Positions 1,558-29,643 of a stretch of DNA of 64,000 nucleotides are shown piece after piece. The position numbers and the translations under genes are program-made. The notes beneath the pieces are model-generated. The model did no database searches, was not told the DNA's origin, and saw nothing but the letters and a program-made list of their open reading frames with translations. Source of the DNA: an uncultured virus (IMG/VR IMGVR_UViG_3300024240_000003) (taxonomy: Duplodnaviria > Heunggongvirae > Uroviricota > Caudoviricetes). The stretch lies in the IMG/VR virus record IMGVR_UViG_3300024240_000003; one strand, given 5' to 3'. Within the stretch, counting starts at the first letter, position 1; each line of letters begins with the position of its first letter.

Positions 1558-1625
1558 AAGCAAGTCCTCGTATCTCTCGCCAAATATTCGGACCTGCTTC
1601 TGGAGGAGAACAAATGAAATAAAAT

Positions 1626-2390: not shown

Positions 2391-2401
2391 AATCGTAAAA
2401 T

Positions 2402-3010: not shown

Positions 3011-3034
3011 AACCCTATCTCCCTTAAATTAAAA

Positions 3035-3534: not shown

Positions 3535-3559
3535 AATATAAAAATTTAAATTAATAAAA

Positions 3560-4441: not shown

Positions 4442-4597
4442 TTCTCTCCCGTATTTAATTTTTTAAAATGCTCTTAATTTTCAATCTTACAAATCTTATG
4501 AATTTTCAAATTTAAAACGAGTAACGGGAGAATTACGAATAATTAAAAAATAAATAATATGAATTACATAAAAGAACAATCCCGCCGCCCTAAAATC

Positions 4598-4999
4598 TTA
4601 TTCCTTTGGTTTTTCCTCTGTGTGTGTATCAGTTGTAGTTTCCGTGTGTGTAATCGTGTCGATTTTCTTTTCTGCTGTTTGTGTAGCATTTTCCATCGCT
4701 TTTAGGAAGAGCACGTCCCAACCCCAGCCAATCGCCATATAAGCTAATATCCAGCCAACCATTTTAAATACTTCTGTCAAAATTGCTGTGTCGAAGTAAT
4801 CATCAGCTTTGATAATCAGTGCGAATAAAAAGAAAATTCCGAGAATCGCTCCGGACCATATCGATTTCTTAATATTTGTCCTTCCTTCTACTGTATTTTT
4901 GGTGTAGGGGTAGTCTTTATTAATAATATGTAAAACTATGCGTGCAAAAAACCCCACCCACATAGATACCGGTATTAATTTGAAAAGTATTGCTTCCAT
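4598..4999 (-). CDS. Putative holin
   Basis: Three TM helices, charged C-tail, directly upstream of the endolysin. Confidence 0.6.
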   Translation of the reverse strand: MEAILFKLIPVSMWVGFFARIVLHIINKDYPYTKNTVEGRTNIKKSIWSGAILGIFFLFALIIKADDYFDTAILTEVFKMVGWILAYMAIGWGWDVLFLKAMENATQTAEKKIDTITHTETTTDTHTEEKPKE

Positions 5000-5030
5000 A
5001 ATATTTTGTTATTTAATTTTAAAAAATTCG

Positions 5031-5519
5031 TCAAAAGAACTTCAGTAATATATCCTGCAACGGTGCCTTACAAACATGCACCAGTACGTAAATCGTAGTT
5101 AGCGTCGGTAATACCTTGAATATTATTAATTTCAAAAAGCCTTTCGCACCTTTATATTTTTTAAGCCGTTTCTTGATGTTGTACGCATCAACGAATATTA
5201 TAGTCGATTTGTATATCTCTATTAATAATTTGTCTTTTTCCATTTGCACCTTCTTCCCCTCGTCATCGCATATTTCAATTTTCTTCATTTCTTCCAGTGT
5301 GTTCCCGATTTTCACAAAATTGTCATAGTTTTCCTGCTTCCAGTTCGCAATGTTGTTATCCAGACTTGTCATTTTCTCGCTCATTTTACCCATCTTTTCA
5401 CCCATCCCGTTTACCGTCTTGATTAATTCCGGATGATCCCCGCAAAATGGCATTTTGATTTCCTTCATTTCTGAATTCTGGTTGTCCGGCCCACTCCCGG
5501 AAGGTTTGTTGTCACCCAT
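5031..5519 (-). CDS. Hypothetical coiled-coil protein with C-terminal TM
   Basis: ORF in the lysis operon. Confidence 0.55.
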   Translation of the reverse strand: MGDNKPSGSGPDNQNSEMKEIKMPFCGDHPELIKTVNGMGEKMGKMSEKMTSLDNNIANWKQENYDNFVKIGNTLEEMKKIEICDDEGKKVQMEKDKLLIEIYKSTIIFVDAYNIKKRLKKYKGAKGFLKLIIFKVLPTLTTIYVLVHVCKAPLQDILLKFF

Positions 5520-5540
5520 TTTTTACAATTTTTGTATTTT

Positions 5541-5957
5541 TTAACAATATAAAACATTAATTAAAATTGTTATCGCTATACCTATGAAACATTGAAATAT
5601 AAAAATCCAATTATTTATTTTGATTCTGCACAATCCAAATGGAGTAAAAAATAGCCAACTCATTTCCTTAATATTCTTAAAATTATGCATAAACCAACCT
5701 TTTTCAAACGAAGGGAATAAAAAGCAATCAATAAGTATGTCATATATGTAATATAACATATCGCATATACCGAACCACCAAAGAATGAGAAATGAAATTG
5801 AGTAGATTATTCCGATAGTATAAAGATAAATTAATATTCCAATTTGCAAAATTACTTGAAATATTCTGTAAGACCTTTCAGCTTTCGTTCCCCACAAATT
5901 GTAAAGAATGTAATCTTCAAATGAAAATAGAAACAATATAATTAATAGGTATTTCAT
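5541..5957 (-). CDS. Hypothetical integral membrane protein
   Basis: Highly hydrophobic, AT-rich, ATGA overlap with the upstream gene. Confidence 0.55.
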   Translation of the reverse strand: MKYLLIILFLFSFEDYILYNLWGTKAERSYRIFQVILQIGILIYLYTIGIIYSISFLILWWFGICDMLYYIYDILIDCFLFPSFEKGWFMHNFKNIKEMSWLFFTPFGLCRIKINNWIFIFQCFIGIAITILINVLYC

Positions 5958-11210: not shown

Positions 11211-12641
11211 TCAAAACTCAATCCCGTATTTCTTCACCTCAGCTAATTCACTCCTCAGCTCCACAAAGTCCGCACTGCTTTTATCAATGTTTGACCCAAC
11301 CGCTTTTACGCTCTTCGATATCTCCTGTATCTTTTCAATCACTTCCTCCGGAGTGTCTCCTGTTCCTATTACACTGCATATCGTAGAGGCTTTCGGTACT
11401 GCCCAGTAATTGCCCCCGTAACAACAGGCTTCCCTGAACTTTATCCATTGCCTGTTTTTCTTGTCAAATTTTATCCTCGCCCAGTTTCCTTCTTCTACAA
11501 AACTCGAATAGAAACTCGCACCGCCTCCGTATTTAGCAGTATATTCTGGAATTACTTTTTCATCATGCCCCATTCCCCAAAATACCTCAGCATAGTTTTT
11601 TATCATTTCCTGCTGCACTGCATTCGGTACCGGCGCCGCTAATCTTAAACACGGGTCAATGAAAAATCCCTTCCTCTGTTTCGTAAGTATCAGCTCTGAA
11701 CTCATCCAGAACGAATAATTTAGTTTTTTGAATACCGGTGCCATCTTGTCACTAATTAGCTTTATGCCTTCCGGCACGTCTTTATAATCATATACTTTCC
11801 CGATGTACCCCGCTCCTTTTATTTCGAATCCAACCATCGTAGGACTTACTACTTCACCTTTGTATAATATTCCGTCCAATCCCGGTTCTATTCCGTCTAA
11901 TTTTTCCTCAATCACAAAGTTTAATTCTTCTCCCTTCGGTCCCCACTCTACCTTAAGTCTTGCAATCTTTGGCTCCGAGTCTTCCCAGTCGTCCTGCGAC
12001 CAGGTTTCAACATCACCTCTGTATGTGTTGAGCTTTATTACAACTTTCTTGTGTTCCTTCAAAAATTTTTCCAGCTTTGTTAAACCCTTTACTACGTCAG
12101 TCTGTTGCGTGGGTAATCCGGCTTTTTCCTGTTCCTTCCTTCCTTTTATCCGGTCAAGCTCAAGTTCCTCAGCATCGCCTACACCCGCCACCGGATATCC
12201 TTTGTCTCTTAAAAAGTTTACTATATCCGAACAGTGTGTGTCAGGAAAAACAATCAGGTCAGCTTCATCAACGTAATCCCAGAAGTATTTTATTCTTTCC
12301 ATGTTCTCGAATCCCTCTCCAATCAGGCTCTTTATCGCCTTCGGAAATGCCTCAGTCCAGGGAACGAAATAATGTACCTTTCCGAATTTCTCTCCAAGTT
12401 TATTGGCTACTTCAGTAAATAAGCCGAAATCATATACAAGACATTTCTTATTACTCAAATCCACTTCTTCGCTCTTCTTCGTACCCTTCGTGGTATGCTC
12501 TTCGCTCTTCCTGTTACTGCCCTCTGCTCCTGCAACTGGCTCCACTTTCCCGCTCTTTCCATTCCCCTCGTTCCCAAAGTCCTCTTTGGGAACGTTTCCT
12601 GCTTTTCCTTTTATTCCTAAACTTTTTAATATTTCGTTCAT
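11211..12641 (-). CDS. ATP-grasp ligase (PurD/GARS-like fold)
   Basis: DLIVFPD, G..V.G....ELE.DR..G, VVIK, FVIEEKLDGIE and FIDPCLR ATP-grasp-type motifs. Confidence 0.7.
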   Translation of the reverse strand: MNEILKSLGIKGKAGNVPKEDFGNEGNGKSGKVEPVAGAEGSNRKSEEHTTKGTKKSEEVDLSNKKCLVYDFGLFTEVANKLGEKFGKVHYFVPWTEAFPKAIKSLIGEGFENMERIKYFWDYVDEADLIVFPDTHCSDIVNFLRDKGYPVAGVGDAEELELDRIKGRKEQEKAGLPTQQTDVVKGLTKLEKFLKEHKKVVIKLNTYRGDVETWSQDDWEDSEPKIARLKVEWGPKGEELNFVIEEKLDGIEPGLDGILYKGEVVSPTMVGFEIKGAGYIGKVYDYKDVPEGIKLISDKMAPVFKKLNYSFWMSSELILTKQRKGFFIDPCLRLAAPVPNAVQQEMIKNYAEVFWGMGHDEKVIPEYTAKYGGGASFYSSFVEEGNWARIKFDKKNRQWIKFREACCYGGNYWAVPKASTICSVIGTGDTPEEVIEKIQEISKSVKAVGSNIDKSSADFVELRSELAEVKKYGIEF

Positions 12642-15600
12642 TCTGGTATTTGGTTAATTTCTTGTTTAAATTTTGTTAATCTCTCACCTTTTATTCCCGG
12701 CTTTTCTTCCGCAAGTCTTAATATCCTCTTCCTGTCAATTTTGAATTTCCCCTCTTCATCCTCTTCAGGTTTGTATATCCATTCATTACCATCGTTTGTC
12801 TTTATTTTATATTTATCCTTTATTATAATATTTATATCATCTAATTTATCGAGAAAAGCAACCCTCTTTCCGTAATTTTCAATAGCATCGTATATTTCCT
12901 CGTCTTTATCTTTTTTCTTTTGCTTCTCCGATTTTTTCTGTAACTCCGCTCCCATTCCTTTGAACATTTCATCAAATGCTTTGTCTCTGCATATTCCTAC
13001 GAGCTCCTTCACGTACCACCTTCTGTCATTAGCATCCTCAATCTTGTTTATCGCATCTATGCTCCCCTCAAGTCCTTTCCGGATATACCCACCGCTTATT
13101 TTTACGTAGTTGTAATATTCATCATCCGTCATTGCTCTTTCTTTTCCGCCTATAGAAACAAGCTCTTTTTTATCCGGAAGAGTAATCCATGCATTATTGT
13201 CAACTATCCATTTCCACACTCTGTCGGATTTTACATCCGTTCCGGAAACTACAAACATATTCGAGTAGTCCTTTGTAACCGGCTCTCCGAGTGCGTTTAT
13301 CATAGGCTTGAGTCCAAGCCACTCCTCACCAATTCCAATGTTTTTTATAAACCTCTCCCTGAGAGTGGAAGCATCGTAATATTTATCATCCCATATTACC
13401 CTCATCTGTTTTAATATGTTCGGTACAAAACCTGTAGGTATGTCTATCGCCTGATCTGTGTAATATCTTCCAAATTCGCCTTCCGTATCACCTACTGCCT
13501 TAAAGAACCTAAGTGCTCCGCTCATAAACGATTTATCGAGTATAGAGTGCATACAGATGAATAGTGTTGAACCTATCCTGTCAGCCCAGCTTTCATCTTC
13601 CTTCTTTGAGTATTTCAGATTGTCCACTATCGTTCCAACTGCAAGTAGAGGAGTCGCAATCGTAGGAATATGACTGTAATCATACCACCTGTTGCCTATC
13701 TTTATGCAGTATGGCTTCCATCCTGTTGCTCTGAGTTCTTGTTGCTGTTTGTAACTCGAGGGTCCCGTTCCGGTTATTTCAATTAACCCTTTAAGCGCTG
13801 CCGCTCCTATCAGTCCAATAAGTGCCGTTCCTTTGAGTCCCCTCGTTATGTATCTCCAGTCTTCACCTTCTGCAAATTTCTCTCCGCCAAGCCCATTGTA
13901 GTGCCCGTATATGCCCCTGTATATCCCCCATGGAGAGTAATTAAATCCCATGTTGTATACATTTGCAACTATGTTCCGGAATGGAATCACGAAGTTGATT
14001 AGGTTTCCTACTTTCGCGCCTGGTAAAATAGGTGATGATTTCGGGATTGCCTTTTTGCTCATCCCATTCGCCGACTGCGCTATCATTCCCGCAAGTCCGT
14101 AAGGCTTTCCCTGAAATGTATTTTGTAATCCGTATTTTCTCGAAATTTCGGTTATCTTTTTGTCCCTGCTCTGCTCTACTATCTGGTTTATCCTTCTAAC
14201 CTTATCCACACCCTTCAATCCTTCCGCTTCCGCCTGTGCTTTTGCTTTTTCTCTAATTTCATCAGTAAGCCCCAGCATCTTGTTTATCGTATCATCAAGT
14301 TCTTTACCTCGTAATCCCTGCTTGCCTGCCATTCTCCGGGCTATTGCCCAGGCTTCCATCTCAGCAGTTGCATAGTGGAACATAGTTGCTCCCGCCTTTA
14401 ATGTTCTCGATACGTATTTAGCCCACGCCATCGGACTCCATGCATAGTTGCCTATCAAATCCAAAGCCCTGTTTGGTCCGTATATGTCACTTCCTGAAAG
14501 TATGCTTACCTTACCTTTCATAACAGCACTTGCCTCCGGAAGTCCTTTTTTTATACCTTCTGCATATTGCTTAATCCTTCCCGGGATTTCTTCCGGATGA
14601 CGTATATCTGCATATAAGTTGTCAACCGATAAAATAAACTCAGAAAGCCCTTTCTTTATATGTGTCGAAAGCCCCGAAAGCATCGATGCATATCTGTATC
14701 CCCAGAATCTATCACCAAAACTTATTCCCTTCTGCTTTTCAATATAATCGAATAAATCTTGAATCTCCTGTTGCTGCTGCAGGCTGTCTGCCGGAAGTTC
14801 CTGAACCTTATTCGCTCTCTTTATTATCTCTTTGCTCTGCTCATCAGTGATGAATTTCATTTTGTATTTCTGCGCGAAGAGCTGCCGGTAATCTTCAAAG
14901 TCCAAAGCTCCTAAGTTTGAGAGCTCAATAATCTTTTCATATAGTTTCTTCGCTTCTTTTGGCTTTATGTCAAGCCTGCTTTCGAGTATTTTTCTTTTTC
15001 TCTCTTCTACCTTTTTATCAAAATCTTCTTTTATGGTTTTTGCAAACCCGTCTATCCGGTTTTTTAATTCTTCATTACCGGGAGCATCCGAATCCCTCGT
15101 TCCCAAAGTCCCCTTTGGGAACGTATCCAGATCAGCTTCTTTTAAAAGTTTATCTGTTAGCGTTTCCTTGGCTTCATCAACCACAGAGAAATGTTTTTTA
15201 ACAATATCCGATAGGTTTACTTCCATTTCTTTTAAACCTGTCTTTACTACACTGCTCACTTCCTTCTCACTCCACGGATTTTCTAAGTAATGTTTGAAGT
15301 AATTATCAAGTATAGTTAGTGCCTTCTCATCCTTCCCGAATTTCTTTTTTACGATTTCCTGTGCCTTTACCCATACATCCCGGTAATCCGCTTCCATCTT
15401 TACGGCTTTTCCTACAATCTCAATAAGCTTCCTCTTTGTCATTGGTTGCTTTTCGGGCACGAGCTTGTTTTCCTTCGCCACCTGGAAGAGCGTCCTTACC
15501 ATCTCTTTTACAATGTCCGGGGGCTCGGGCTTAAGCGGAGGTTTAAGTGTGTTTATAACTTTCTTCGCGAGTATCTTACTGGCATCTTCATAGTCCTGTG

Positions 15601-18600
15601 CCTTCTGTCTCAACTCTCTTGCCGCCGTTTTACTTTTTTCCGATACTTCACCTTTGTTAATCTCGTTTACAATTCTGTCCGTTAAATCTTTCAACGAGCC
15701 TGTCACATTGTTTATAATCGTTGTTACCTTTTCAGCGTCCTCATATCCCTTCACCCTTGCTTTCAATTCCCTGATAATATATTCAGCTTTCTTATTCCTT
15801 TCCTCAAATTCACTCGTGAGTTTTTGAACGGCATCCGATAATTCTTTATTCTTTATGTTCCCTACAGCCTCCACCATGCTTTGATGCAGGTCTTCGTATT
15901 CCTTGAATAATTCTTCCTTTTCCTTATCGCTTAATTTGCCTTTTGTTTCCATCTCCGCAGAGAGTTCTACAATCTTTTTTGATAAGTCTGATATTTCTCC
16001 TCTTACACCTGCTATGTAATTATCTAATTCATCACCTTTTAAAAATTCATCCATATCATCCGCCACGTATCTTGTCACCTTTACAAGTTTCCCGCCTTCT
16101 GTTACCGTATCTTTTCCTTCAATCTGCTTTTTCGCATATCTTAAAAAGCCCGCAGGAGATAGATTCTTGAACATAGCATAAGCCTGTACACCTCTTCCAA
16201 GCAGCGTTCCGGCTTCCATTGTGTAGCCGGCTAAATCAACAGCCTTTTTATATTTTTCCTCAGCCGCAAGTATATCACCGCCTTTTTCAAGTTCTTCTCC
16301 TTCCAATGAGAGCCTCTTTATCAGGTATTCACCCATTGCTACTTTCACTTCATTCTCAATCTCTGCATCGTTCCTCTTTATCGCTTCTATCGAGTCGTCA
16401 ATACCGTAATCTTCTACGTGCTGCAAAGCCTTTTCAAGTGTAACTTTGTTTGCTATCGGTTTGTAAAATTTATTTTCCAGAGCCTGCTTTATTCTTTCAT
16501 TCACTTCATCGCTTCTTCCAATCTGCTTTCCGAATTTCCGCGGCTTCATTTTCTTTTCCCTTGCTAACTCTTCTGTAGCAACCCGGTTAACATAATCCGC
16601 ACTTGCCAGTTCGTATAGTTCTTTGTATTGATTCTCTGAAAATTTAAATGGTACTTTTTGTGATTCAAATAATCTGTCCATTGAATCCTTGAATTCTCCC
16701 TCAGTCATCTTTGGATTGTTGGATATACCGAAAGTTCCTATCTTTATTAAGTTATCTTTATGCTCGATAAAATAACTCGTGCTGGTATGCTCAAGTAACT
16801 TTGGAAATTCTTCCGGATTGTTTTTAAATTCCGATTCCAATTCTCCCGGATCCTCTTCCATTTCATATCCATCACCTTTTTCACTTATTATTCCACGCTT
16901 AAATAATTCTTCTGTCACTTTCCTTATCTCTTTTGTATCCCGACCGGATTTCTCAGCGATATCGGATACTTTTACGCTCCCGCCTTTCTTCGGAAGAGAA
17001 GAAAATATAGAATCCTTAAAATCCTCTAATCCTTTTTTTATCTCTCCAACCCCGCTTTTTATCCCTTCATCAAGATTGTAATTCGTCAGCGAACCGAATT
17101 TGTAATCACTGCTATAATCCGGCGATTCCCCTTCAGTATCTTTTTCCCTATTGACATTAATATTTTTATCACTTAAATTTGAATCGGATAAATCATCCGT
17201 TGAAATCTGTTTATTACCCTTCGGGGTTTCAGATTTCAGTTGTGATTTGCTTTCAAAGTTACTCTCGTTGGATTCGTCTGACGAGAGTATTTTATTTTCA
17301 GAATATTCTTCCGTTCCATTCAATAATGACGTTAAATCATTGGTGATATTTTTTGCTTTTACTTTGTCTTTATTAAATTTTTCCTCTTGTACTTTAACTT
17401 CATCGCTATTTAAAAAATCTTGTTTTGCTTTCTTATATCTTTCAGTAAAAATTTCATTGTATTTTAAATCAATATCTTGATGTGCATTCCGTCTTTCGTA
17501 ACTACTCCCGTAATTCTCTCCCTGCCCTGAAATAAAAGAATGCTCGTTTTGTCTCGCTTGTTTTTCCTCATCTGTTAAAAAACTGTCTCCTCCATTTCTA
17601 TTGAAAACAGGATTAAATTTTTCTTCAGGCTTTGGCAATGTAGATAGTTCTTTAACTTGTCCCTTAATAAAATCTTTATTCTTTTCGGCGTTAATATAAA
17701 ATATTTCAGGCAGTATTTCAGAATTTATTATACCCCGATTTTTTAATTCGTTTATTGTTTTTTCATCAAATCCTTGTTTTGATAATTCTATTTTATAAAT
17801 AGGTTCGTCTTTAGCGACTTTTAGATTGTTTCTTAATTCTTCTGCTTTATTTAGATTTTCTGCTGTTTCGTAATCAATCCCGCTATAATATCGGGGTAAA
17901 TTATACTTATATGTTGCATCAAACCATCCGTACTTACCATTCATTTCAACTGACGACACTATTCCGTGTTCCGGCTCTTTATCTTCTCGCTTGAATGTCT
18001 TGAATTTTGAGTTGAAGTCATCTAATTCTTTCTGTGCCTCATAAACATATTTACTTCTTACATTTTTAATATTGTTTTTCTTTTTAATGACTTCTTTTGA
18101 TTTCGTATCAAGAGCTTTAATAACATTTTTGGGAACATCTTTAAAACTTTCGATGTTGTCTAAATTATCACTACCTAATTCTTTCAATTCTGCCTCTGAA
18201 AATAAAAAGGGACTGATAAATTCATCTACACTATAAAACGGTGTTTCATTTCCATAAGAAGATGTATGATGCCACTCGTTTGTTGTTGCTAATCCTGCAT
18301 CTACCATTCTTTTTGCCCAAGTTGGAAGTTTTGAATAAGGTAATTTCCCTTCTTCATACGCTGATTCGGCTCGTTTACTCATTGAATGTCCAACATACCC
18401 ACTATTGCCCCCAAATGGTTTTCTTTTTTCACTCACCATCTCTCCAACATTAGTACCAATCTCTTCTCCAAAATATCTCCTGTAATTTGTTACCTCTCCG
18501 CCTTCCCATGGATATTCCTTTTTGTTGTCATTTCTCCAGCTCTTCTGCTTTGAGTTGTCTAAGAAGTCTACGAGCTGCTGGTCCTGAAGCATCTGCTCCA

Positions 18601-21600
18601 CGTTAGTTCTCGCAAATGGACTCAGGTTTTCTTCGTTACCCATCACCATTGCAAAGTGTGAGCTCCCCGTCTCTACTCCTATTTTCCTTAAGTATTCCAG
18701 TATATCTTCGTAATTATCCAGTAGTCCCATAGGTACTTCATGCATCGTTGTTATTTTCATCTGTGGGTCAACTCCAATCAGCGTAACCGCATTGTCGTTT
18801 CCCTGTAATTCTTTTACTATATTTTGTAATTTTTTCGAGGAGATTTTCTGTCCCATATACCCTGAGTGACTCTTCGGGTCTAATAGTGTGTCATATCCTA
18901 ATTTTAAATTATCTTCATCTGCAAAGTCATAGATATCCTGTGTTTTGAGTATCTTCTCAAATACAGAATCGTTTCTTTTTTTCGCTTCCTGCTTTATGTT
19001 TGTTATGTCCCCGAATCTTTGTTCGAAATTCAAGCGGTGAATTACCGAGTATTTTCCGTGATTGGTTACTATATGCGCCTTTATTTCCGGAATTTCCTTC
19101 ATAAATTCATAAGTCGTCTTTATGTCATCATCGCTTGCATAATGCTCCGCAGATGGATGATTGTGCGTTAATATCACTTCATCAGCTCCTAACTTGCTTA
19201 TATCACCTTTTATCAGCTCTTTCATATCCGGAGAGAATATTACCGCATTTGGCAGTCTTGAAGTTACTGTTTTGTATCCCACAATTTTACCGTCTTTCAT
19301 ATAAAACACTCTGAAGCTTTCAAACCTGGGGTCTCTGAGTACCTGTACCATATAAGCTAAATCCGCCGGTGTGTTTACTTCTTTTCCTATGAATTCAATC
19401 TGTCCGTCTTCAATCATTTTCCTTGTCTTCTCAAGGTATTCTTTGTTGTACCTTAATGGTAATTCTCCGAAGAGTCTATCAGACCCGGGTTCCTTTCCTC
19501 CGGTGCTCTCTGCTTTTCCTTCTCCGCCAATATTTCCCATCTTGCTATCTGTGTCGTTATTTCCGGTATCGGATTCGGCGGCTTCCTTACCTGTTGTTGC
19601 ATCCGGTAACTGTTCTCTTCCTGCCAGTTCGTTATAATTAAATAACCCCAGTTGTCCACTGCTAATACTGAAATCGTATCTTGCAAGGTCTCCGATGGCT
19701 TTATTGAATAAATCCAGTTGACCTGGTTCCTTACCCTCGATATTAACATTTTTAAGCCCTTCCTTTTGTAGAACTGTTATTTCTTTGTCTATCTTATTAT
19801 TTATTTCGTCTCCGTATATATCAATCTGTCCTTCAAGCGGCTGCTCGCTGTTGTATTTTTTCATAGCCGCTATCACATCTTTTGCTCTTTCCTGTATCGC
19901 TCTTAATTCTTTTGCATATTTGTAATCACCGCTTTCAGCATATAAATTTGCTATCCTGTCATTGTAATCCTGAAGTGTTTTCAGGTATTCATAAGGATTC
20001 CCAATCCCTAATCCCAAATCCCCTTTATAAGCCTCGTACTCCGCCCCCCGTTCAAATACAGCTTGTCCCTGCATTACACTTTCTTTCATAGAGGGGGTAA
20101 TGTCAAGGGAGTGGATAGGTGAACTTTCTACGTAGTTTTCTTTAATATATTTTTCTGCCTTTGCTCTTGTCAAAAAGGTTTTAATAACAAGATTGTACTC
20201 ACCATTTGGGGACATTGCTTCAATCACAAACTTATTACCCTTTTCTACTATACGTGGTTCTTTATATTGGTTATTTAATTTTGAATCATTATTTATTGTG
20301 AGTTCTTTTTCCCCTACTTTCCCGCCCCACTTCTTTGTGTATTTGTTCATAAATTCGGGAATGATTTTGTCGTAGAATCCTTTCATTCCTTCACCACCGA
20401 TTTTTAAATTATCACCCTCAATCTTACCAACCGTTTCCTTACTGTTTATTATTTTTTCTGCAATTTCCTTACCTACTAAATTAGATAATTCATTTTTCAA
20501 TACAACTTCATTCGGATTAATTACATTAAGTATTTCATTATTTTTACCAAATATTTTTATAAAATATCCGTCTGCACGTTTGTTATAAGAATATTCAATT
20601 TTGTTCACCTGCTTACTCAAATCATACCTCTCCGCCTGTTGCTCTCCCGTAGTCCAGCCAATTCCGTCATATCCGTTTTCAGTTGCGTGTCGTAATGCCC
20701 ACTTCATTCCTACTTCTTGCCAGTTCTTTTTGAATGGAAAATTCGGAACGCCTGATTTTACACTTAATTTGTCAAGTTCTCTATCTTCTTCATCGGTCAT
20801 TTTTTCAAGTAATATGTCGGGGAAACCTTGTCTCTTTTCTAAACCATATTTTTTCTTCAATTTTTCTAAATATTCATCATACAGTTTTTCATCTCCACTA
20901 TACCCCTCTTTTCTTCCCTTCTCTCCCCAGTCACTCTGTACTTCTTCAAGGAATAAGATTTTCTTGCCATCCGCAGTCGTTCTGTCGTTCATACGGAGAT
21001 GTAATGCTACGTTGGGTTCGTCAAAGTGACCACTTTTGAAAACATCGGGTCTTGTTTCTTCGCCCGTTTGTCTTAATGATTCTAACTTTTTATCTTCTTC
21101 GGGTGTAATCTCTGCTCGTAACCTTTTTTGAGATATTTCACGTGGATTTAATCCATATTTTTCTGCTAATTCATTATAATAATCTGCAAATTTTAATAAT
21201 GGTTTTCCGCTCGGTAACGTCAATAATACCTCTTTGTAGTTTTCACCGCCGGGTAATTGCCATTGTGCAAATTTGGTGTCTGCTTGCTCTTTAATTGATT
21301 TTATATCTTCGTAACTGTCTATTGCCTCGTTATGTGCTTCAACTATATCGTGATATTTGTTAATATCGTAATCCGGTAAATATTTTAGTATGTTATCAAC
21401 CGCACCACTCATTTGAGGAGAATTGAATTTCATACTGTCTAAAATATGTGTCCACTCACTTCTGTCGGAGAATGATACACCTTTTTCTTTTAACTGATTT
21501 TGTAAATCTGTGTTAGCTTCTTTATATTTATCATATATTTTATTTCTTCTAATCTCCGCATCCTTGATTTGCTGCTGTCGCTTTTCGCTTATAGTCCCTG

Positions 21601-24600
21601 CGCCCTTCGTAACTTCTTTCACCTCAACTTTATTCTCGTTGATAAAATTAAGTAAATCCTGTTTGCTTACTTTATCTTTGCCTTTCAAGAATTCATCTAT
21701 TCCTAACCAATCATATTCCGCTTGTTTTACTCCGTTGTTAAGTAATGTGCTTTTTATCTGCTCCGGCGATGCGGAAGAAGGCAATTTTGAACTTGCTATT
21801 CTCTCAAGGTTCGAGTAAAATGTCGGTTTACTATTTTCTTCATCATATCCGGTTCCTTTCTCAAATACCGCATCGTCTGGTTTCGATTCAAATATAAATC
21901 CCTTTTTCTCTCTCGACCAATTTCCACCCTGCTGTTTCATCTCTTTGTGTATCTTCCAGAACTCATCCTTACTAACTTCATTATTCAATCTCGCTACCCA
22001 AATATCTTTTTTACCTTCAGTATCTTTTTCCCTATTGACATTGATATTTTTATTTTTTAATTTAGTAGCGCTTGTATTCAGTGGATTATCAGAGTGTTCC
22101 TGCTGCTGAATGGAACGCGGACGAGACACTTCGGACGCCTTCAGTTTTTCAACTACCTCTAACTTCTTGATATAATTATCATTCACTCTTGGTTCGAAAG
22201 TTATTACATTGTATAAACCCTTATCAGCCTTACCTTTTACGGAAATTAGTGTATAGTTATTGTCCTTCCATTTTTTTGTTATATAAATTCTTTCTTCTCC
22301 GTTATGATTTGATTTGAATATACTCGTCGGCTCGATTAATGTATTTTTCAGTTTACCGTTTTTTATTGCATTCAATTTTTCCCTCGAAATAACTCTTTTA
22401 CTAAAATCTCTTTTTCTTGTTTTAGTGTCCACAGCATTTATAGTTATAAAATGTGCCAACTTCTCACCTTCGGTCTCTGTTCCGGTAGGACCTAAATAAA
22501 CTTTAATGTCCTTTCCATATACTATAGGATTTTCCTTTGAGAACTCTTTAAAAAGTGGCTTAACTATTTCTATACTGTTTATTATTTCTTCATAATCTTT
22601 TTTGTCAAATTTATTGAGTGGATTTTTTGCATCTGTTAGATCTGAAACAGAATCTTTATTATTCTCTTTTTTCTGCTCTTCTTCGCTTTTCCCCACCGGA
22701 TTCAACTTCTCATCCAGTCCCGCTTCTTGCCTTTCTTTTTGTATATCCGAATCCTGATGCTCACCCGTAGGTTGGTCTCCGAAGAGGGAAGTCTGCCCGA
22801 ATAGCGATGTCTGAGCTTCATCATATGCTGCTCCCTTGTCAAATATCACTCCCTGCTGCCTGCCTTGTATCTTCACCTGCCCTACATCTGTCATTTCATC
22901 AATGTCTTCACCTTCCTGCAGAGCCCGGGCAATTCTTATTTTCCTTTGCGTAATCACCGCCCGCCTCTCGTCGTTAATAGCATCCTGTCCCCAGATAATG
23001 TGTACATCCGCCGGAGTTACACTGTTACGCCTCGAAAGTCTATATATTTCCTGCTGAAATAAATCCCCGCTATAAGGAGAGGAAACAATGTATCCAATTC
23101 TTTCTTTTCCTCCTAACCTCTGGTTATCCAGGTCTATTCCAACTCCTCCGCTTTTCGGTGTCATCATTCCCGCATCAAATTTGTCAGCTTGAAATTTTTC
23201 AATGTCTTTTATTTTGGCATCGCTGTCACTACCGTATATCTTTGCAAAACTTATTCCGGCATTTTCAAATTTCTTCGCAAGTGCTCCTATAAATCCGGGT
23301 ACTTCTATCCCTAATGATTTTATTGTCGTGGGATTTATAAAGTCCGCACATACTATCGGAAGCCTGCCTGCCGCTATGTCTCCCGCAACAGTTTCGAATA
23401 TATGTTCAACTTTCGCCGACTCCGTTATAGCCCAGAGCTCCCGGTTCCTTGAACGCCCGTATGCCATAGCTATTTTATCAGCATCCGTTATTCCGCTGTT
23501 TAATACTCTCCTTATTCTGTCCTGCCAGTGCTGCCAGATATCGCTCTGCATTTCATAAAAGTCCGCGGAAAATGGAACAGTCACTTCTTTTATGTTTCCC
23601 CAGAATGGATATTCGCGCCTGAGCATGCTTCCGGCTTTTATAGCTTCGTTCCGGAGTGCTATTATCCTTCTTACAAGTTCACCACTATCCAGTTTTTCAT
23701 CTGCAGCGGTGATAATCTTTCCGTTTTCATATTCGAGTTTGAGTCCTAATCTGTCTGCGATATCCTGCACGGGTTTTCCTGTTATTTCTGAAAGGAAATA
23801 AATTGATGCTTTCGGTGTGTCGAGCGGAGTCGCTGTTGCAAATAGATTTCTTTCGGTCTTTACGTTTGATTGTGCTATCGAGCGGAGTGCTTCAACGTTC
23901 TTTAAATTGTGTGCTTCGTCATAAATTGCAAGTCCGTAATCTTCCTTTCCTATCTTACCTGTCCTTAAATCATCATAAGTTCCTATATCAAATTGTGAAA
24001 TCCCTATCCTTAATGCTTTTGCTTCTGACTTAAAACTTTCGTCATATACTTGCTTGTTTGGTACTACAATCAGTACCGGCTTTTTCCAGGTGTCTATAGC
24101 ATATTTAGCTATAACAAGTTCTTCCCTTGTCTTTCCTAAGCCTGGTCCGTCGGCGAGTAATCCTGATTTGTTTCCGCCCTCAAAGTTGCTTATCATTAGA
24201 TTCGCACCGAATCTCTGATGCTCGTCTAATTCACTCTTTCCGTTTATTTCGTATTTTTCGGCGGGAATGTAGTCTTTTGACGGCTGTGGTACATCTTCTT
24301 CATCAAAATATCGTAATCCGGGTCGCTGAATTCTGCTCTCTCCAGCATCTGCTCCTCGAGGCTCTCGTCCGCCCCGTACATTTGACCGTTCACCTTCACG
24401 CTCTCCGACTTCATCAGGTTTTCTAATGTCATCGGAATTGAATTGTCTGATTTCGTTTTCATTTGATAATTCGTTTTTAATTGCAGGTGAGAGTTCATAT
24501 TCTTTTGCAAATTTCTCGTACCCCGCTTTTAAATATGGTAAAATATTTTGTAAATTCCTATGTCTTAATTCATTTGCTATATCATTTATCTTGACAACAC

Positions 24601-27600
24601 CTATCTTTGCAAACCTGCTTACTAAATCCGCAACTTTATCAACTGTCTCCACGTCCTCCGTGTCATACCCCGCCCCTTTATCGAAGAGTGCATTCTGCTC
24701 TTTCGCCGCATCGAGGTATTTATCAAGTTTGTTCTGAAATCCTAACTTTTCCGTTGTTAATTGTTTTATTAAATCTCTCTTTTTTTCGAGTGCCTTGTCA
24801 ATAGCTTCATCTGTTATTTTCGGATCTGCTTTCTGCCTCATCACAAATTCATCTCTGGAAGACGCTAAATCATCCTCCGCAGCTTTTATTTCCCTGTTGA
24901 GCCTTCCAAGTTCCTTTCGGAAGTCCGCTTCCTGTATAGATTCAGCCTTGTTTTCAATGTTCAGAGGCTTCGAATAATCGAATTCCCAGTCACCTTCCTC
25001 TAAGAATTTTAGCTTTGTTTTCAGGTCATCGTATGAGAAGTCTTGCTTTTTATTCAGCCAGTTGTAAATTTCCTCTTCGTGCTTGTTCGTAAGGTCTGGA
25101 AATTCCCGTCTCGCACGTCCTACAATAGATGCCATCTTCTGCCCCCGTGCTTTATTCTCCGCACTTGCAGAGTCCATCATCTTGTAATTCTGCACAATCG
25201 AACCCTTTGGATTCAGGAATGAAAGGTTATATACATCCTGTGAGTTTTTCTTTTCTAATTTCCGCGCCTTAGATAGAATATCTTTTTCAGGTTTACCTTC
25301 TAAGCGCATATCTCTGTATAATTTTGCACTTTCGGTAAAAGATTGAGCAGTGTTTAATTTGTTGCTTTTTTCCTTACCGTAAACTTTTGCCTGCTCCTCA
25401 GTACCTTTATGGAAAATTGATGGTATTTCATCAAACCCCGGGACTCCTTCTTCTGTTAATTCCTTATATGCCTGCAATCTTGAATGATTTAAAGCATATA
25501 TTTTATTGTCTTTCGGGTCTTTCCATAGTCTCACAGAATCAAACTCTTCGGGAATAAACTCTCCGTTTTTAACAGCATTTTTTATACTGTCTACTGTGTC
25601 TCGTGAATATTCATCCTCTCTGGGTTGAAATCTTTCAAGGTCAACACTTATTTGGTTTATTGGTACTAATTTTTCTCTGCTGAAATCTTTAAATTCAGAC
25701 GGCTCTTTGCTCTTACCTTCAGTAATCTTCCTGTCCTTAGTAGTAAATAAATCTTTTCCTATTTCATCAATCTCTTTCGATATCGCTTCCTTATCAGCTT
25801 TCTTTACCGCAGTTACAATCTTTTCCGGTTTCTCTACAGGTTTCTTTTCTTCTTCTTCTTTTTCAGCACCTGTAAGAACTCTTTCTTTGCTTTCTCCATC
25901 TGCAGGGGCTTCAACGTCTTTAATTCCCTCGGCGGGCTTATTTCCTTTGTCTTCATTTTTTATCTTTTTCCTTTCTTCTTTAGGTGTTTGAAGAATTCCA
26001 CCTGTGCCAGCCTCTTCTGTGCCTCGTCCATTGACAGGTTGTTTTTCGATAGGTTCTTTCTCCCCTCGCTCTTCACCTGGTAGCCCTTCGATGTTTTCTT
26101 TATCATTTCTCGATGCCTCTTTAATTTGAAATAATGAATTTGTTTCTTTACTGTCAACTTTCTCAACTTTGAATCCCTCAGGAAGTTTTGTGTTTATTTC
26201 TTTTAAAAGTTCATTAGAATTTTCTTTGCTTATCAGTGGGTCCGCAGAAGAGATATATTTCCCGTCAGATATATCATCTTTTGCAATATCTTGCGCTAAC
26301 GGATGTTTAAGCTCATCTTTTTTTATAATTACCTCTTTCTTCATGCCCTCTGTGTCCTTAGTGGTAGAGGGTTCTCCGCTCTTCTCCACCGGCTCTATTT
26401 CACTCAATAATTCCTCAGCTCTATTTATATCAGCAGGAGGAGGAGCAGGTTCTGTGTCGACTTTAGTTTCACTTTTTTCTTGTCCCAAAAATCCCTTAAT
26501 CTTTTCCATTGGTTCTACAGTAGGAATAATGTCACTTCCTTTCATCGGTCTGTAATGAAATGCACGGAAGAGCGTGTTTGTGAGCGCATCACTTAAAAAT
26601 TCTTTTCCGTTGAATCCTTTCCCGCTCATCAGTCCCGGGACCTGTGAAGCCATAGGAGGAACGAGCGCATCGTATAATAATCCTTTGAATTGTGCCGCAT
26701 TGAATCTGTTCTGGAATATTTTTGGAATTTCATACGGAGTTTCATCTACTGCCCTCTTTATTGGCTTTTCAATTTCTCCAAGTAAATTATTCCTTAAATT
26801 CTGATATTCCGGTAATTCCATTTCTCCTTTTGCCATTGCATCCCGACCGATTTGTAATTCTTTGAATGCTTTTTCTGTGAATAGTTTTTCTTCCGGAGTC
26901 ATCTTTACTCCGCGGATTACCTTTCCAAAATCCTTGCTCGCATCTTCATATAACTTTTTAACTTCATCTCCAAATGGATTGAGTCCGAATGCCGCACCTA
27001 AGAGAAGACTATGTCCCACATCACTTGACATATCTACCGGCTGTAAATCTCCTTTTGCCATCGAAATAATATCTCTACTTATCGTGGGAAGTGTGAACGT
27101 GCCTGTCGTCTGCATTATGTTTGGTATGTGCGCGGCTAAGTAATTTCCTACTTTATCACCTAAAAACCTCGATACTGTATTCAAAGCCCCGCTAACAGTT
27201 TCTTCGTTTGCCAAACGCCTCATAACCGGCCCCATTAGCTTACTGGATGCTCCCAGTCCAACGATAACGTCAGGAATCATCTTTGATATCGATTCTACTA
27301 CCGCCTTCGGCTTAACGTCAATTCCGAGCAGTTTAAATCCTTCTTCATTATTCTTTATAGCTTCCCTCTCCAGCCTTAGCATCTTAGGTCTTAAATCCGG
27401 CAGGAATCCGAATCCGGATGTAATACTTTCAACAAGCCCCTGTTGCATCGATTCAAGGAATCCGTTTGAATTGTTTTTATACTTTTCCTGTAGGTATGGT
27501 TTCAGTACCTGCTCGTCAAATATGTTTTCGGCTTCTTCCGTCTTCCGCCCTTCTTCACCTTGCAGAAGAGATTTTCCAATCCTGTAAGCCCATTGGTTCG

Positions 27601-28180: not shown

Positions 28181-29643
28181 TAGTACGCTCCGATTTTTTT
28201 AAGGTATGTTTTTCTTGCACCGCTTATTTTGTCTTTGCTTTTTTCTTTCTGTTTGTAATGTTCAAATGCCATCCTCATTCTTGCGGACTTTTCCGTATTG
28301 TCGTATTTATCGTTCTTGTCAATTTCGTTTAATGCTTCCGAGAAGTAATCTTCTTCCGGATTATCATCCCCGTTGTCAGTGTTTTCCTCGTCATCTCCGG
28401 CATCAAATAAATCATCAGGTATCTTTCCCGTTTCCTCGTATTTCTTAATAGCCGAATGTATTTCATCATCTTCTAAATCAGTATTTTCTTGCATCCATTT
28501 AAAAGCCTTCTCATACGTGTCCTTGTCTTTTTCCTCCCAATCATCCCACTTCTGCCCCGAGTGCGTAAGCCCGAGTTTTGATAACGTTGCTACTGTCTTG
28601 CCTACAATCTGCTGCTCCGGTGTCTTTGTTTTTTTTCCGCCTCTTCGGCTTCTTGATGTTCCTCCAGATAATCTTTTTTCTTTTAATTGCCTGTCCACGT
28701 CTTCGTCTTTTAAACCCTGTTGGTAATCTTCCATCTCCGTAGGCGTTAGCTCTTTTATTAGCTTTTTATTCCATCCATTCTTATCCTGTGCCCACTGACT
28801 CCAGTAATATTTATCTCCTACCTTTTCTACTTCCCAGTTCTTTGGGTCCATCGTTTTATCAGGCTTCCCCGTTCCTAAGTCTATTACTTCATAATTTCCG
28901 TAACTGTCGTGCTTAAGCATTTTATCATTTCCTAAACTTGTGTAACCATATACTGTGGGAGCTTGTGGAGTTATCGTTTCAGACGCTAACCTCTGACTGT
29001 ATAAGTCCATCAGTCTCGTTCCTTCTTTACCCCGTGATATTAACCCCGGCGCTTTTTTGTATAGCATTTCCCTTATAGCATCATTATGCCCCTGTACGTC
29101 AAAGTTTGATTTTTTGAATTGTTCGTAGAAGTCTTTGTCTTCAGGAGTGAATCCTGCTTTTTCGTATACCTTCCCGCTTAATTCTTCCGGAGTGAGCGGT
29201 ACCTGTCTTTGTTTTAAAAATCCGGAATTTATTAACTCCTGCTTGTGCTCCGGATTGCTTTCAATATAATCTCTTAAGTTCTGTGGGGTTTCTTCCGGCT
29301 TTTCTTGCTTTGTTTTGTCGACGTATTCATTGTATTTTTTATATGCATTCGTGCTCATGAAGTTGTTTAAATTATTCGGGTCTTCCATATCCACGTAGTC
29401 ATATTGTCCTTCTACAGGTTTCATCATTTCGGTCTTGTCGAGGTTTGTACCTTTGTATCTGCTGTTTAATGCCATGAACTTATTATATTGCTTCCTCTGC
29501 CCACTGTACTTACCAACCTCTTTCATAGCTTCGTTATAGCTTGTCTTTTTTATAACGTCATCTAAGTTGCCGAGTATGTTTTCAATCAGCGGTTGATTTC
29601 GTATTACCTCATCGTCAAAATATCCAATTCTTCTCTCTGGCAT
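28180..29643 (-). CDS. Putative internal virion/ejection protein
   Basis: Hydrophilic 487 aa between the tail gene and the giant gene. Confidence 0.55.
   Translation of the reverse strand: MPERRIGYFDDEVIRNQPLIENILGNLDDVIKKTSYNEAMKEVGKYSGQRKQYNKFMALNSRYKGTNLDKTEMMKPVEGQYDYVDMEDPNNLNNFMSTNAYKKYNEYVDKTKQEKPEETPQNLRDYIESNPEHKQELINSGFLKQRQVPLTPEELSGKVYEKAGFTPEDKDFYEQFKKSNFDVQGHNDAIREMLYKKAPGLISRGKEGTRLMDLYSQRLASETITPQAPTVYGYTSLGNDKMLKHDSYGNYEVIDLGTGKPDKTMDPKNWEVEKVGDKYYWSQWAQDKNGWNKKLIKELTPTEMEDYQQGLKDEDVDRQLKEKRLSGGTSRSRRGGKKTKTPEQQIVGKTVATLSKLGLTHSGQKWDDWEEKDKDTYEKAFKWMQENTDLEDDEIHSAIKKYEETGKIPDDLFDAGDDEENTDNGDDNPEEDYFSEALNEIDKNDKYDNTEKSARMRMAFEHYKQKEKSKDKISGARKTYLKKIGAY

What the first reader, a model, noticed from the sequence alone, without database searches (positions are those of the whole stretch)
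17151..17298. Complete antisense small-RNA gene hidden inside the 15.5-kb polyvalent-protein gene
Seen on the + strand, opposite the CDS: TTGACA-17-TAAATTTG; hairpin CGGAT/ATCCG; a long stem TGAAATCTG/CAGATTTCA capped by ACCC-TTCG-GGGT; and a 13-bp stem TACTCTCGTTGGA-TTCG-TCTGACGAGAGTA followed by TTTTATTTT. The protein frame here is a Ser-rich linker (SSDESNESNFESKSQLKSETPKG), as expected if the RNA constrains the sequence. It lies C-terminal to the region carrying the SMS/EWHHTS domain. Inference: a ~110-nt sRNA acting as antitoxin, cofactor or silencer for the neighbouring domain, so that domain and RNA travel as one cassette.
Basis: partly seen in the sequence, partly recalled or inferred. 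Interest (0 to 1): 0.9.

Follow-up and report, generated by a model that had tools for sequence, protein, structure and literature searches.

The report
CRISPR-repeat decoy RNA inside phage gene
On the strand opposite a giant prophage anti-defence gene lies what looks like a complete small-RNA gene whose conserved core is the part of the host family's Cas9 CRISPR repeat that pairs with tracrRNA, so it is most likely a phage decoy or hijacker of CRISPR immunity and not a regulator of the neighbouring protein domain.

Summary
Window 17186-17298 (+) is the most structured 113 nt on that strand in the 64 kb. It ends in a 13-bp hairpin plus U-run that looks like the phage's and hosts' intrinsic terminators, and it follows TTGACA-17-TAAATT.

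It lies antisense in a translated linker of a 5180-aa polyvalent-protein gene of a prophage. Only one diverged homologue of the linker exists (L061). It keeps the terminator through two compensatory pair changes, the U-run and both promoter boxes.

The new result concerns the block between the first helix and the terminator (17239-17258, GTTGTGATTTGCTTTCAAAG). It equals the first 20 nt of type II-C CRISPR repeats of the host family: 20/20 to an array in G116 and 18/20 to the array beside cas9-cas1-cas2 in G001, which carries the identical prophage. These are the repeat positions that pair with the tracrRNA anti-repeat I found upstream of cas9.

Best reading (0.5): a phage crRNA/scaRNA-like decoy of the solitary-repeat/Racr class, unusual in being hidden antisense inside coding sequence.

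Transcription is unproven, because the RNA data are unstranded contigs with no peak.

The parts
12638..28180 (-). 5180-aa polyvalent-protein gene of a prophage. The element lies antisense to residues ~3628-3677, a linker that starts where the conserved ~390-aa SMS/EWHHTS module ends (residue 3620).
   Evidence: ORF and translation. SNF2/ResIII and RadC-like JAB domains. Prophage context: integrase, endolysin, large terminase. Homology with P0002 stops at residue 3620. The frame is kept in L061 through in-frame indels of 27 and 6 nt.
17151..17179 (+). Promoter-like site TTGACA-17-TAAATT. The start site is inferred near 17186.
   Evidence: 10 of 12 matches. L061 has TTGACA-17-TATATT at the aligned place, while the spacer is only about 48% identical. 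A tRNA-Gly gene in the window also has TTGACA upstream. Such sites are at chance density overall. No transcript start could be measured.
17186..17238 (+). 5' 'guide-like' segment. GAUAAAUCAU pairs with part of the repeat handle. It encloses the long stem TGAAATCTG/CAGATTTCA capped by C(UUCG)G (17201-17239).
   Evidence: Folds. The 27 nt that make the 5' arm and the cap are missing in L061 (in-frame), leaving about 26 nt between the inferred start and the handle. The last 13 nt, GTT(T/A)CAGATTTCA, match at 12 of 13.
17239..17261 (+). CRISPR repeat handle GTTGTGATTTGCTTTCAAAG(TTA), in crRNA sense. It is the tracrRNA-pairing 5' part of type II-C repeats of the host family.
   Evidence: 20/20 to 74 repeats of the G116 array. 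18/20 (21/23 with the next TTA) to the G001 array next to cas9-cas1-cas2. Pairs with the anti-repeats found upstream of cas9. Single copy in the window, 0.02 expected. In L061, positions 2-15 are identical.
17260..17298 (+). Intrinsic-terminator-like hairpin (13 bp, UUCG loop) and U-run TTTTATTTT.
   Evidence: -17.6 kcal/mol on the + strand against -12.8 on the - strand; in L061 -16.1 against -6.8. The phage's own intergenic terminators give -18.6 and -18.5. 12 of 13 pairs are kept in L061, with 2 double and 2 one-sided changes. A model of it picks up ordinary host terminators.
17130..17186 (.). Copy 1 of a 57-nt direct repeat; copy 2 is at 22014-22070. The first 40 nt differ at one base. It encodes KNINVNREKDTEG and contains the TTGACA box.
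   Evidence: both copies also seen in G001. Not present in L061. Its role is unknown.

Best explanation
The + strand of window ~17151-17298 is a small phage RNA gene laid antisense into a translated linker of the polyvalent-protein gene.

Its parts, in order:
- a sigma-70-like promoter;
- a 5' segment of about 53 nt (about 26 nt in the relative L061);
- the first 20-23 nt of a type II-C CRISPR repeat in crRNA sense;
- its own terminator hairpin and U-run.

Inferred mechanism: the RNA imitates a crRNA (guide plus repeat handle). Its handle pairs with the host tracrRNA anti-repeat, and the duplex occupies Cas9 and/or uses up tracrRNA. Fewer Cas9 complexes then carry real spacers. This makes it an RNA anti-CRISPR of the solitary-repeat (Racr) / viral scaRNA kind.

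Shown: the structure, its strand bias, its conservation with compensatory changes in one homologue, the identity of the handle to host-family repeats, the presence of cas9-cas1-cas2, an array and a tracrRNA candidate in the genome that carries the identical prophage, and computed pairing.

Inferred: transcription from this promoter, binding to tracrRNA/Cas9, and any effect on immunity.
For: Structure and strand.
- z -5.5; the top + strand window of 6389.
- G.U pairs and UUCG loops make the + strand hairpin much stronger than its complement: -17.6 against -12.8 here, -16.1 against -6.8 in L061.

Conservation in L061 (67% amino-acid and 72% nucleotide identity over 440 aligned codons).
- 12 of 13 stem pairs are kept despite 7 substitutions, including C-G to U-A and G-C to A-U, while the encoded peptide changes (SSDESNES to LPDESDKS).
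- In my simulation with the local substitution matrix, at most one broken pair occurs in 3.1% of trials, and in 0.95% given 7 or more substitutions.
- The U-run, TTGACA and a -10 box at 17 nt are also kept.

CRISPR identity.
- The 20-mer (up to 3 mismatches) matches in 92 of 151 related genomes.
- 27 of these have 5 or more copies, spaced at 66 or 75-77 nt in the arrays listed or fetched. Reversed-pattern controls give 0-1 per strand.
- 74 exact copies in G116, beside cas9 (518 bits) and type II cas1.
- G001, which holds the identical prophage, has cas9-cas1-cas2 and an array whose repeat differs at 2 of 20 positions.
- In the family, the exact 15-mer occurs in 14 of 86 genomes, as 5 or more copies in 9.

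tracrRNA.
- Candidates with anti-repeat, AAGGAUUAUUCCG motif and terminator lie upstream of cas9 in G001 and G116. This fixes GTTGTG... as the crRNA sense.
- Phage handle against the G116 anti-repeat gives -19.3 kcal/mol, equal to the host's own repeat.

Other viruses and context.
- The handle occurs in 40 IMG/VR loci, against 4 for the reversed control. 34 are solitary, in 10 sequence groups.
- Solitary repeats as phage RNA anti-CRISPRs, and viral scaRNAs that pair with tracrRNA, are described in PMC10651486 (abstract, section 9, passages) and preprint 10.64898/2026.06.01.729453 (abstract, section 10).
- Polyvalent proteins are read as anti-defence weapons (PMC5512222, abstract and passages).
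Against: - No proof of transcription. The four metatranscriptome runs are unstranded contigs, cover most of the gene at low depth and show no peak at 17186-17298. One contig (17209-17359) runs across the terminator.
- Only two distinct sequences carry the element among 5.8 billion protein clusters and the DNA collections searched, so covariation rests on one pair. The tool's shuffle control is powerless here (136 of 500).
- Against the tracrRNA of G001, the genome that actually carries the prophage, the handle has an A.C mismatch at position 7: -15.7 against -21.3 kcal/mol for the host repeat.
- No array with this handle was found in L061's genome G434 (69% complete).
- Promoter-like sites are at chance density.
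- Synonymous-site conservation and codon usage in the linker are not outliers.
- None of 192 distinct spacers from 7 related genomes matches the window.
- In the predicted fold, part of the handle is paired within the RNA itself.
- No Rfam family, CRISPR-DR families included, matches.
Confidence: 0.5

Rival explanations
1. A working phage-encoded crRNA/scaRNA. The segment upstream of the handle is a real guide that, with host tracrRNA, steers Cas9 to a target (the cas9 promoter, a host gene or a competing phage), repressing or cutting it.
For: The layout promoter, ~26-nt 5' segment, handle, terminator in L061 is that of a minimal type II crRNA gene. The 13 nt next to the handle match at 12 of 13 between the two phages. 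Viral scaRNAs with truncated guides against the cas9 promoter are reported in preprint 10.64898/2026.06.01.729453 (section 10).
Against: No 3'-anchored match of 9 nt or more to either guide-like segment in the cas loci of G001 (L102, L103) or G116 (L104, L105), nor elsewhere in the window. In the window the seed CAGATTTCA is locked in the long stem. The 5' two thirds of the 'guide' differ between the two phages. PAM and true targets are unknown. Only two cas loci were examined.
Confidence: 0.12
2. A relic without function. A piece of a CRISPR array (spacer end plus repeat start) or a palindromic insert was captured in a tolerant linker, and the hairpins were made and kept by replication template switching, not by selection.
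For: The element is rare: 2 of 5 module homologues carry it. The 27-nt indel creates an inverted copy of the adjacent 9 nt, as template switching does. Template switching can create and maintain hairpins with compensatory-looking changes (10.1101/2021.04.15.439925, search listing and abstract start only). Another palindrome, a 32-copy host repeat, also sits in frame in this gene at 15098-15123. No expression signal.
Against: The handle, the terminator pairing, the U-run and both promoter boxes are all kept at 72% overall nucleotide identity, while the peptide over the stem changes at 7 of 12 residues. G.U pairs keep the structure on one strand only. The retained piece of the repeat covers the tracrRNA-pairing part, positions 1-15.
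Confidence: 0.2
3. One reading: an ordinary cis-antisense RNA that controls the polyvalent-protein mRNA or the adjacent domain (silencer or antitoxin), with the likeness to a CRISPR repeat being incidental.
For: It is fully complementary to the mRNA by position. It has a promoter-like site and a terminator. Lambda OOP is a precedent for a short antisense RNA over the 3' part of a phage gene (PMC5869508, search listing and abstract start).
Against: A 20/20 match to host-family CRISPR repeats cannot be chance. Three of five homologous modules lack the element. No small toxin ORF and no tandem RNA repeats as in type I or type III toxin-antitoxin pairs. Most bacterial antisense transcripts are not conserved (PMC3419515, title and abstract start).
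Confidence: 0.1
4. The signal acts on the other strand or in DNA. Either the mRNA's anti-repeat-like stretch (CUUUGAAAGCAAAUCACAAC) sponges host crRNA repeats, or the hairpins pause ribosomes or mark a recombination site at a module border.
For: The - strand also folds better than shuffles (z -5.46). The element sits exactly at a module boundary, next to a 40-nt intragenic repeat. The mRNA necessarily carries the complement of the handle.
Against: The - strand version is not among the 12 most structured windows. In L061 the sense hairpin is weak (-6.8 kcal/mol, z -2.6). The one-sided changes (U-A to U.G) fit only the + strand. The U-run and the promoter boxes have no role in this reading. G.T pairs weaken any DNA cruciform.
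Confidence: 0.08

Closest known systems
Solitary repeat units / RNA anti-CRISPRs (Racr; Camara-Wilpert et al. 2023, PMC10651486)
   Same: One CRISPR-repeat-like sequence in a prophage, not next to cas genes or other repeats, behind a predicted promoter, matching the CRISPR-Cas subtype of the host. The proposed action is competition with real crRNAs for Cas components.
   Different: The Racrs tested there act on type I-F, I-C, I-E and V-A; in the main text 'tracrRNA' occurs 0 times and 'type II' once. Their search was limited to intergenic regions (section 9). This one lies antisense inside translated sequence, keeps only the first 20-23 nt of the repeat, and has its own terminator. A type II mimic would have to work through tracrRNA pairing, not through Cas6 or Cas7 binding.
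Viral scaRNAs and viral single-guide RNAs (Feussner et al., bioRxiv 10.64898/2026.06.01.729453)
   Same: A phage RNA that imitates a guide plus repeat and pairs with the tracrRNA anti-repeat of a Cas9 system. Sequestration of Cas9 is one of the two routes proposed there.
   Different: Reported vscaRNAs share a guide that matches the cas9 promoter and lie near Acr/Aca genes (section 10). No seed match to the cas9 upstream regions of G001 or G116 was found here, and the neighbourhood is a giant structural/effector gene. There is no tracr-like scaffold in the RNA, so it is not a vsgRNA.
Lambda OOP RNA and similar short phage cis-antisense RNAs (PMC5869508; general features recalled)
   Same: A short RNA with its own promoter and intrinsic terminator, encoded opposite the coding sequence of a phage gene.
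   Different: OOP acts on the overlapped cII message. Here the conserved core matches a host CRISPR repeat, and nothing links it to control of the overlapped gene.
Virus-borne mini-CRISPR arrays (recalled: Medvedeva 2019 and Faure 2019; seen here only as cited in PMC10651486 and in earlier scan notes)
   Same: CRISPR array pieces carried by viruses without cas genes, relying on host Cas proteins.
   Different: Mini-arrays have two repeats and a spacer against related viruses. Here there is one truncated repeat and no identified target.

Membership tests
Solitary repeat unit / Racr candidate | Sequence matches a known CRISPR repeat | tested here: met
   20/20 to the first 20 nt of 74 repeats in G116; 18/20 to the G001 array; arrays in many relatives. 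Only the 5' 20-23 nt match; the rest of the 36- or 46-47-nt repeats does not.
Solitary repeat unit / Racr candidate | Solitary: no second repeat and no cas genes beside it, on a virus or plasmid | tested here: met
   One match in the 64-kb window with up to 3 mismatches. Prophage genes around it. No cas gene among the 24 ORFs scanned against PHROGs; cas families were not searched for specifically in the window.
Solitary repeat unit / Racr candidate | Host carries a CRISPR-Cas system of the matching subtype | tested here: met
   G001 holds the identical prophage segment and cas9 (in three ORF pieces), type II cas1, cas2 and an array. G001 is a metagenome-assembled genome, so linkage rests on binning.
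Solitary repeat unit / Racr candidate | Expressed as a small RNA from its own promoter | tested here: inconclusive
   A promoter-like site and a terminator are present and kept in L061. The RNA-library contigs give no strand, ends or peak.
Solitary repeat unit / Racr candidate | Inhibits the cognate CRISPR-Cas system | not testable with these tools
   Needs interference assays.
Viral scaRNA (vscaRNA) | Repeat-like part pairs with the tracrRNA anti-repeat | tested here: met
   Computed duplex of -19.3 kcal/mol with the G116 anti-repeat, equal to the host repeat. -15.7 with G001, with one A.C mismatch. Computed only.
Viral scaRNA (vscaRNA) | Guide matches the cas9 promoter | tested here: not met
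   No 3'-anchored match of 9 nt or more in L102, L103, L104 or L105. Only two cas loci were examined.
Viral scaRNA (vscaRNA) | Located near Acr or Aca genes | not tested
   No Acr/Aca search was run. The element lies inside a 15.5-kb polyvalent-protein gene.
Cis-antisense sRNA with own promoter and intrinsic terminator (OOP-like) | Promoter, terminator and overlap with a gene on the other strand | tested here: met
   By sequence only.
   The overlapped sequence is a linker of a 5180-aa ORF. No tandem repeats of the RNA. The element is absent beside 3 of 5 homologues of the adjacent module.
Any Rfam family | Covariance-model match | tested here: not met
   No match up to E 1 in 12000-29000. Only a tRNA at gathering score in the whole window.

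The most novel reading that the evidence does not exclude
Phages hide complete minimal crRNA genes (promoter, guide-like segment, tracrRNA-pairing handle, terminator) on the antisense strand of translated linkers in their giant anti-defence genes. One stretch of DNA then encodes a counter-defence protein on one strand and a Cas9-directed RNA on the other. Such coding-embedded repeats are invisible to surveys restricted to intergenic DNA, so they may be a sizeable missed class. The RNA may not merely soak up tracrRNA and Cas9 but reprogram host Cas9 for the phage.
Probability: 0.15. Interest if true: 0.8.

Novelty: new variant of a known kind. Interest (0 to 1): 0.62.

Why it matters
RNA anti-CRISPRs and viral guide mimics are recent discoveries. 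The published survey of solitary repeats looked only between genes (PMC10651486, section 9). A type II-C handle with its own promoter and terminator, written antisense into a translated linker, would show two things: such RNAs can be overprinted on coding sequence, and giant polyvalent counter-defence genes can carry a second weapon on the other strand. The case gives a concrete, testable example for Cas9 systems of Ignavibacteria-like hosts. It also argues for repeating solitary-repeat searches without masking coding regions.

Tried and rejected
- **RNA evidence.** Four metatranscriptome runs (X1-X4, two studies) were laid on 14200-20200. They are unstranded contigs at depth ~0-14 over most of the gene, with no peak at the element. 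They can show neither strand nor ends, so nothing follows for or against transcription.
- **More homologues of the linker.** Searched in IMG/VR, JGI metagenomes, GTDB genomes, the 5.8-billion-cluster protein collection and GenBank phages. Beyond identical copies (G001, L019) only L061 turned up.
- **Covariance model R1, built from the two sequences.** It found only these two plus generic host terminators at weak scores.
- **Multi-copy palindromic element.** Rejected for the 13-bp stem, which is single-copy in G001. A different palindrome in the same gene is a host repeat.
- **Bacteroidetes-type -33/-7 promoter pattern** (motif recalled from memory). 1 match in the window against 1.57 expected, and not at this site.
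- **Promoter region derived from the 3' part of a CRISPR repeat.** Alignment scores are reached by 12-96% of shuffles.
- **Trans targets in the window.** Matches of 11-13 nt are at chance level.
- **Guide seed against cas loci.** None.
- **Host spacers against this prophage.** 0 of 192 distinct spacers at E <= 0.001.
- **tracrRNA at G001 C111.** The match lies inside a 594-aa ORF and was rejected.
- **Synonymous-site constraint and codon-usage outlier tests.** No clear signal.
- **The tool's covariation shuffle control.** Uninformative with two sequences.
Full report
**1. The observation**

The region lies opposite a single open frame of 5180 codons, 12638..28180 on the minus strand.

As RNA, + strand 17186-17298 folds at -39.9 kcal/mol, z -5.51, with 0 of 200 dinucleotide shuffles as stable. 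The complement reaches -29.8 kcal/mol, z -5.46.

In my scan of 6389 overlapping 113-nt windows across the 64 kb, this stretch ranks first on the + strand after correction for GC (z -4.73). It is not among the twelve best on the minus strand.

The 13-pair stem with TTTTATTTT is by far the best terminator-like site in 12-29 kb, where the total number of such sites is at chance (12 against 10.9). TTGACA-17-TAAATT scores 10 of 12, but promoter-like sites as a class are no commoner than in shuffles (39 against 41.6).

No Rfam family matches.

**2. Context**

The window is a prophage. PHROGs finds an integrase (484-1557), an endolysin (3560-4441), a large terminase (40541-42166) and ParB-like and replication proteins.

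The giant ORF has SNF2/ResIII and RadC-like JAB domains, as polyvalent proteins do (PMC5512222; abstract and passages read). That text mentions 'linker', 'antisense' and 'small RNA' zero times.

The element covers residues ~3628-3677. A 3069-aa relative (P0002, 67% identical) aligns from the SMS/EWHHTS motif up to residue 3620 and then continues with an unrelated module. The element therefore sits in a linker at a module border.

The linker is translated. The only relative that has it keeps the frame through indels of 27 and 6 nt.

**3. Relatives**

Identical copies occur in a 126-kb metagenome contig (L019) and in genome G001.

Homologues of the ~390-aa module fall into five distinct types: the window, L061, L020=L021 (=P0002/P0006/P0007), L022 and L062. 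Only the window and L061 have the linker.

L061 comes from a metagenome-assembled genome titled Ignavibacteria bacterium. It is genome G434, in the same family as G001.

In L061 the module after the linker is an ART-PolyVal domain. In the window it is a weak winged-helix-like stretch.

Searches of IMG/VR, JGI metagenomes, GTDB genomes, 5.8 billion protein clusters and GenBank phages gave no further carrier.

**4. What is conserved**

Window and L061 are 67% identical in protein and 72% in DNA over 440 aligned codons. On the + strand:

- TTGACAT is identical.
- The -10 box is TAAATT against TATATT, at the same 17-nt spacing, while the spacer is only about half identical.
- GATAAATCATC is identical.
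- 27 nt that form the 5' arm and the UUCG cap of the long stem are absent from L061.
- GTT(T/A)CAGATTTCA and the next 20 nt are nearly identical.
- The terminator stem has 7 substitutions in 26 nt yet keeps 12 of 13 pairs. Two pairs changed on both sides (C-G to U-A, G-C to A-U), two on one side (U-A to U.G, U.G to C-G), and the outermost is lost.

RNAalifold recovers the same two helices by itself.

The peptide over the stem changes from ILSSDESNESN to KLLPDESDKST, so pairing is kept at the cost of the protein.

A simulation with the substitution matrix of the surrounding 440 codons gives at most one broken pair in 3.1% of trials. Given seven or more substitutions the figure is 0.95%. The tool's own shuffle control cannot discriminate with two rows (136 of 500).

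The stem is much stronger on the + strand: -17.6 against -12.8 kcal/mol here, and -16.1 against -6.8 in L061. It equals the phage's intergenic terminators, at -18.6 and -18.5. A covariance model of the element picks up ordinary terminators of related genomes as its weak hits.

Synonymous-site conservation (11/13 and 12/15 same codons, against 64% overall) and codon usage are not clear outliers.

**5. The decisive finding**

The block between the first helix and the terminator, 17239-17258 GTTGTGATTTGCTTTCAAAG, reminded me of Bacteroidota type II-C repeats. That was a recollection, so I tested it by searching with the window's own letters.

With up to three mismatches it matches in 92 of 151 related genomes. 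Of these, 27 have five or more copies, spaced at 66 or 75-77 nt in the arrays listed or fetched. Reversed-pattern controls give 0-1 per strand. One of the 151, G407, is flagged unpublished and carries no claim.

G116 has 74 exact copies. Its repeat is GTTGTGATTTGCTTTCAAAGTGATATTTTTAATATC, with 30-nt spacers, next to cas9 (518 bits to TIGR01865) and type II cas1.

G001, which carries the identical prophage, has cas9 (as three overlapping ORF pieces), type II cas1, cas2 and an array at a contig end. Its repeat is GTTGTGGTTTGCTTTCAAAATTATG..., 18 of 20 identical to the phage block.

In the family, the exact first 15 nt occur in 14 of 86 genomes, as 5 or more copies in 9. The window has a single copy, against 0.02 expected.

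**6. Orientation and pairing**

Upstream of cas9 and divergent from it, both G001 and G116 carry a tracrRNA-like gene. It has an anti-repeat (UGAAGCAAACCACAAU or CCGAAGCAAAUCACAAU), then AAGGAUUAUUCCGUAGUGA, then a hairpin and U-run.

The anti-repeat pairs with repeat positions 1-15, so GTTGTG... is the crRNA sense. The window's + strand therefore carries the handle in crRNA sense.

- With the G116 anti-repeat the phage handle gives -19.3 kcal/mol, the same as the host's repeat.
- With G001's own anti-repeat it gives -15.7 against -21.3, because of an A.C mismatch at position 7.
- L061's handle gives -19.5 and -14.2.
- Positions 2-15 are identical in the two phages.

**7. Reading**

The unit has the parts of a minimal type II crRNA gene: promoter, 5' segment, tracrRNA-pairing handle, terminator. 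In L061 the 5' segment from the inferred start to the handle is about 26 nt. In the window a 27-nt insert folds back on the seed.

I take it to be a crRNA/scaRNA mimic that pairs with tracrRNA and occupies Cas9. That places it in the class of solitary repeat units and RNA anti-CRISPRs (PMC10651486), close to the viral scaRNAs of a 2026 preprint (10.64898/2026.06.01.729453, abstract and section 10).

I found no seed match of 9 nt or more to the cas9 upstream regions or elsewhere. A guide function is therefore less likely than a decoy.

The published survey searched intergenic regions only, so an element inside coding sequence would have been missed.

In IMG/VR the first 19 nt occur in 40 loci, against 4 for the reversed control. 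34 are solitary, in 10 sequence groups. Some are full-length repeat copies, and one group of 12 sits in sense inside a 218-aa ORF and may be coding coincidence.

**8. What argues against**

- Transcription is not shown. The RNA-library contigs are unstranded, cover most of the gene thinly and show no peak at the element.
- Only one diverged homologue exists.
- The handle mismatches the tracrRNA of the very genome that carries the prophage.
- No sampled spacer targets the prophage.
- Template switching could create and maintain such hairpins without selection (10.1101/2021.04.15.439925, listing and abstract start).
- Another palindrome in this gene is simply a copy of a 32-copy host repeat.

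**9. Verdict**

'A small antisense RNA gene' is plausible. 'Partner of the adjacent domain' is not supported.

The best explanation, at 0.5, is a phage RNA aimed at the host's type II-C CRISPR-Cas9. It is a new variant of a known kind because it is overprinted on a translated linker and reduced to the tracrRNA-pairing handle.

Earlier scan notes e1-3389303 and e1-5895199 describe similar Cas9-repeat decoys on other mobile elements. They are unchecked notes and add no independent support.

Noticed in passing
window 15098-15123: A perfect 11-bp palindrome, CGTTCCCAAAG-TCCC-CTTTGGGAACG, lies in frame inside the polyvalent gene. The same palindrome (up to 2 mismatches) occurs 32 times in G001, with a reversed control of 0. 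6 of 6 copies inspected lie outside open frames of 120 aa or more. Metatranscriptome contigs pile up there with many different flanks. It is a host REP-like repeat copied into a prophage coding region.
   Followed up: partly
window 17130-17186 and 22014-22070: A direct repeat inside the gene. The first 40 nt differ at one base. It encodes KNINVNREKDTEG twice, each time in a linker before a new module. Copy 1 supplies the TTGACA box of the element. It is absent from L061. It may be a recombination scar or a duplicated signal.
   Followed up: partly
window 59467-59728 (-): A small ORF encoding an almost pure Gly-Ser/Tyr/Asp dipeptide repeat (MGKVNSGSGSGSGSGDGSGDGYGYGSGY...). It is followed by a strong terminator hairpin (GTTTGCCCGCC...GGCGGGCAAAC TTTTTTT). 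This GC-rich stretch is the most structured region of the window on the minus strand.
   Followed up: no
window 35341-35453 (-) and 54461-54573 (+): Two other strongly structured stretches (GC-adjusted z -5.45 and -4.70). The first fills the gap between two minus-strand genes of the structural region.
   Followed up: no
L102 (G001 C130) 1316-5793: cas9 of the genome that carries the prophage reads as three overlapping ORFs (202, 275 and 1049 aa), and the array contains NN. This is either assembly error in a metagenome-assembled genome or a broken cas9 in the lysogen.
   Followed up: no
L147 (G038 C13) 1015, 1321, 1655: Three full-length copies of the same repeat family, spaced 306 and 334 nt apart instead of ~76 nt, each followed by similar sequence. 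This is not a normal array.
   Followed up: no
L108-L110, L112, L114, L116-L118, L125, L127, L143, L144 (IMG/VR): The G-variant of the handle (GTTGTGGTTTGCTTTCAAA) lies in sense inside a conserved 218-aa ORF in 12 viral contigs. It may be coincidence amplified by a gene family, or another coding-embedded handle.
   Followed up: no
P0001 (window 12638-28180, -), several linkers: A recurring short motif between modules of the giant protein: ALFDKGAGYD, VIFDKGAAYDE, AVFEKGTGYDE, AVFERGAEYE, and QPLFKD in relatives. It may be a module-border or processing signal.
   Followed up: no
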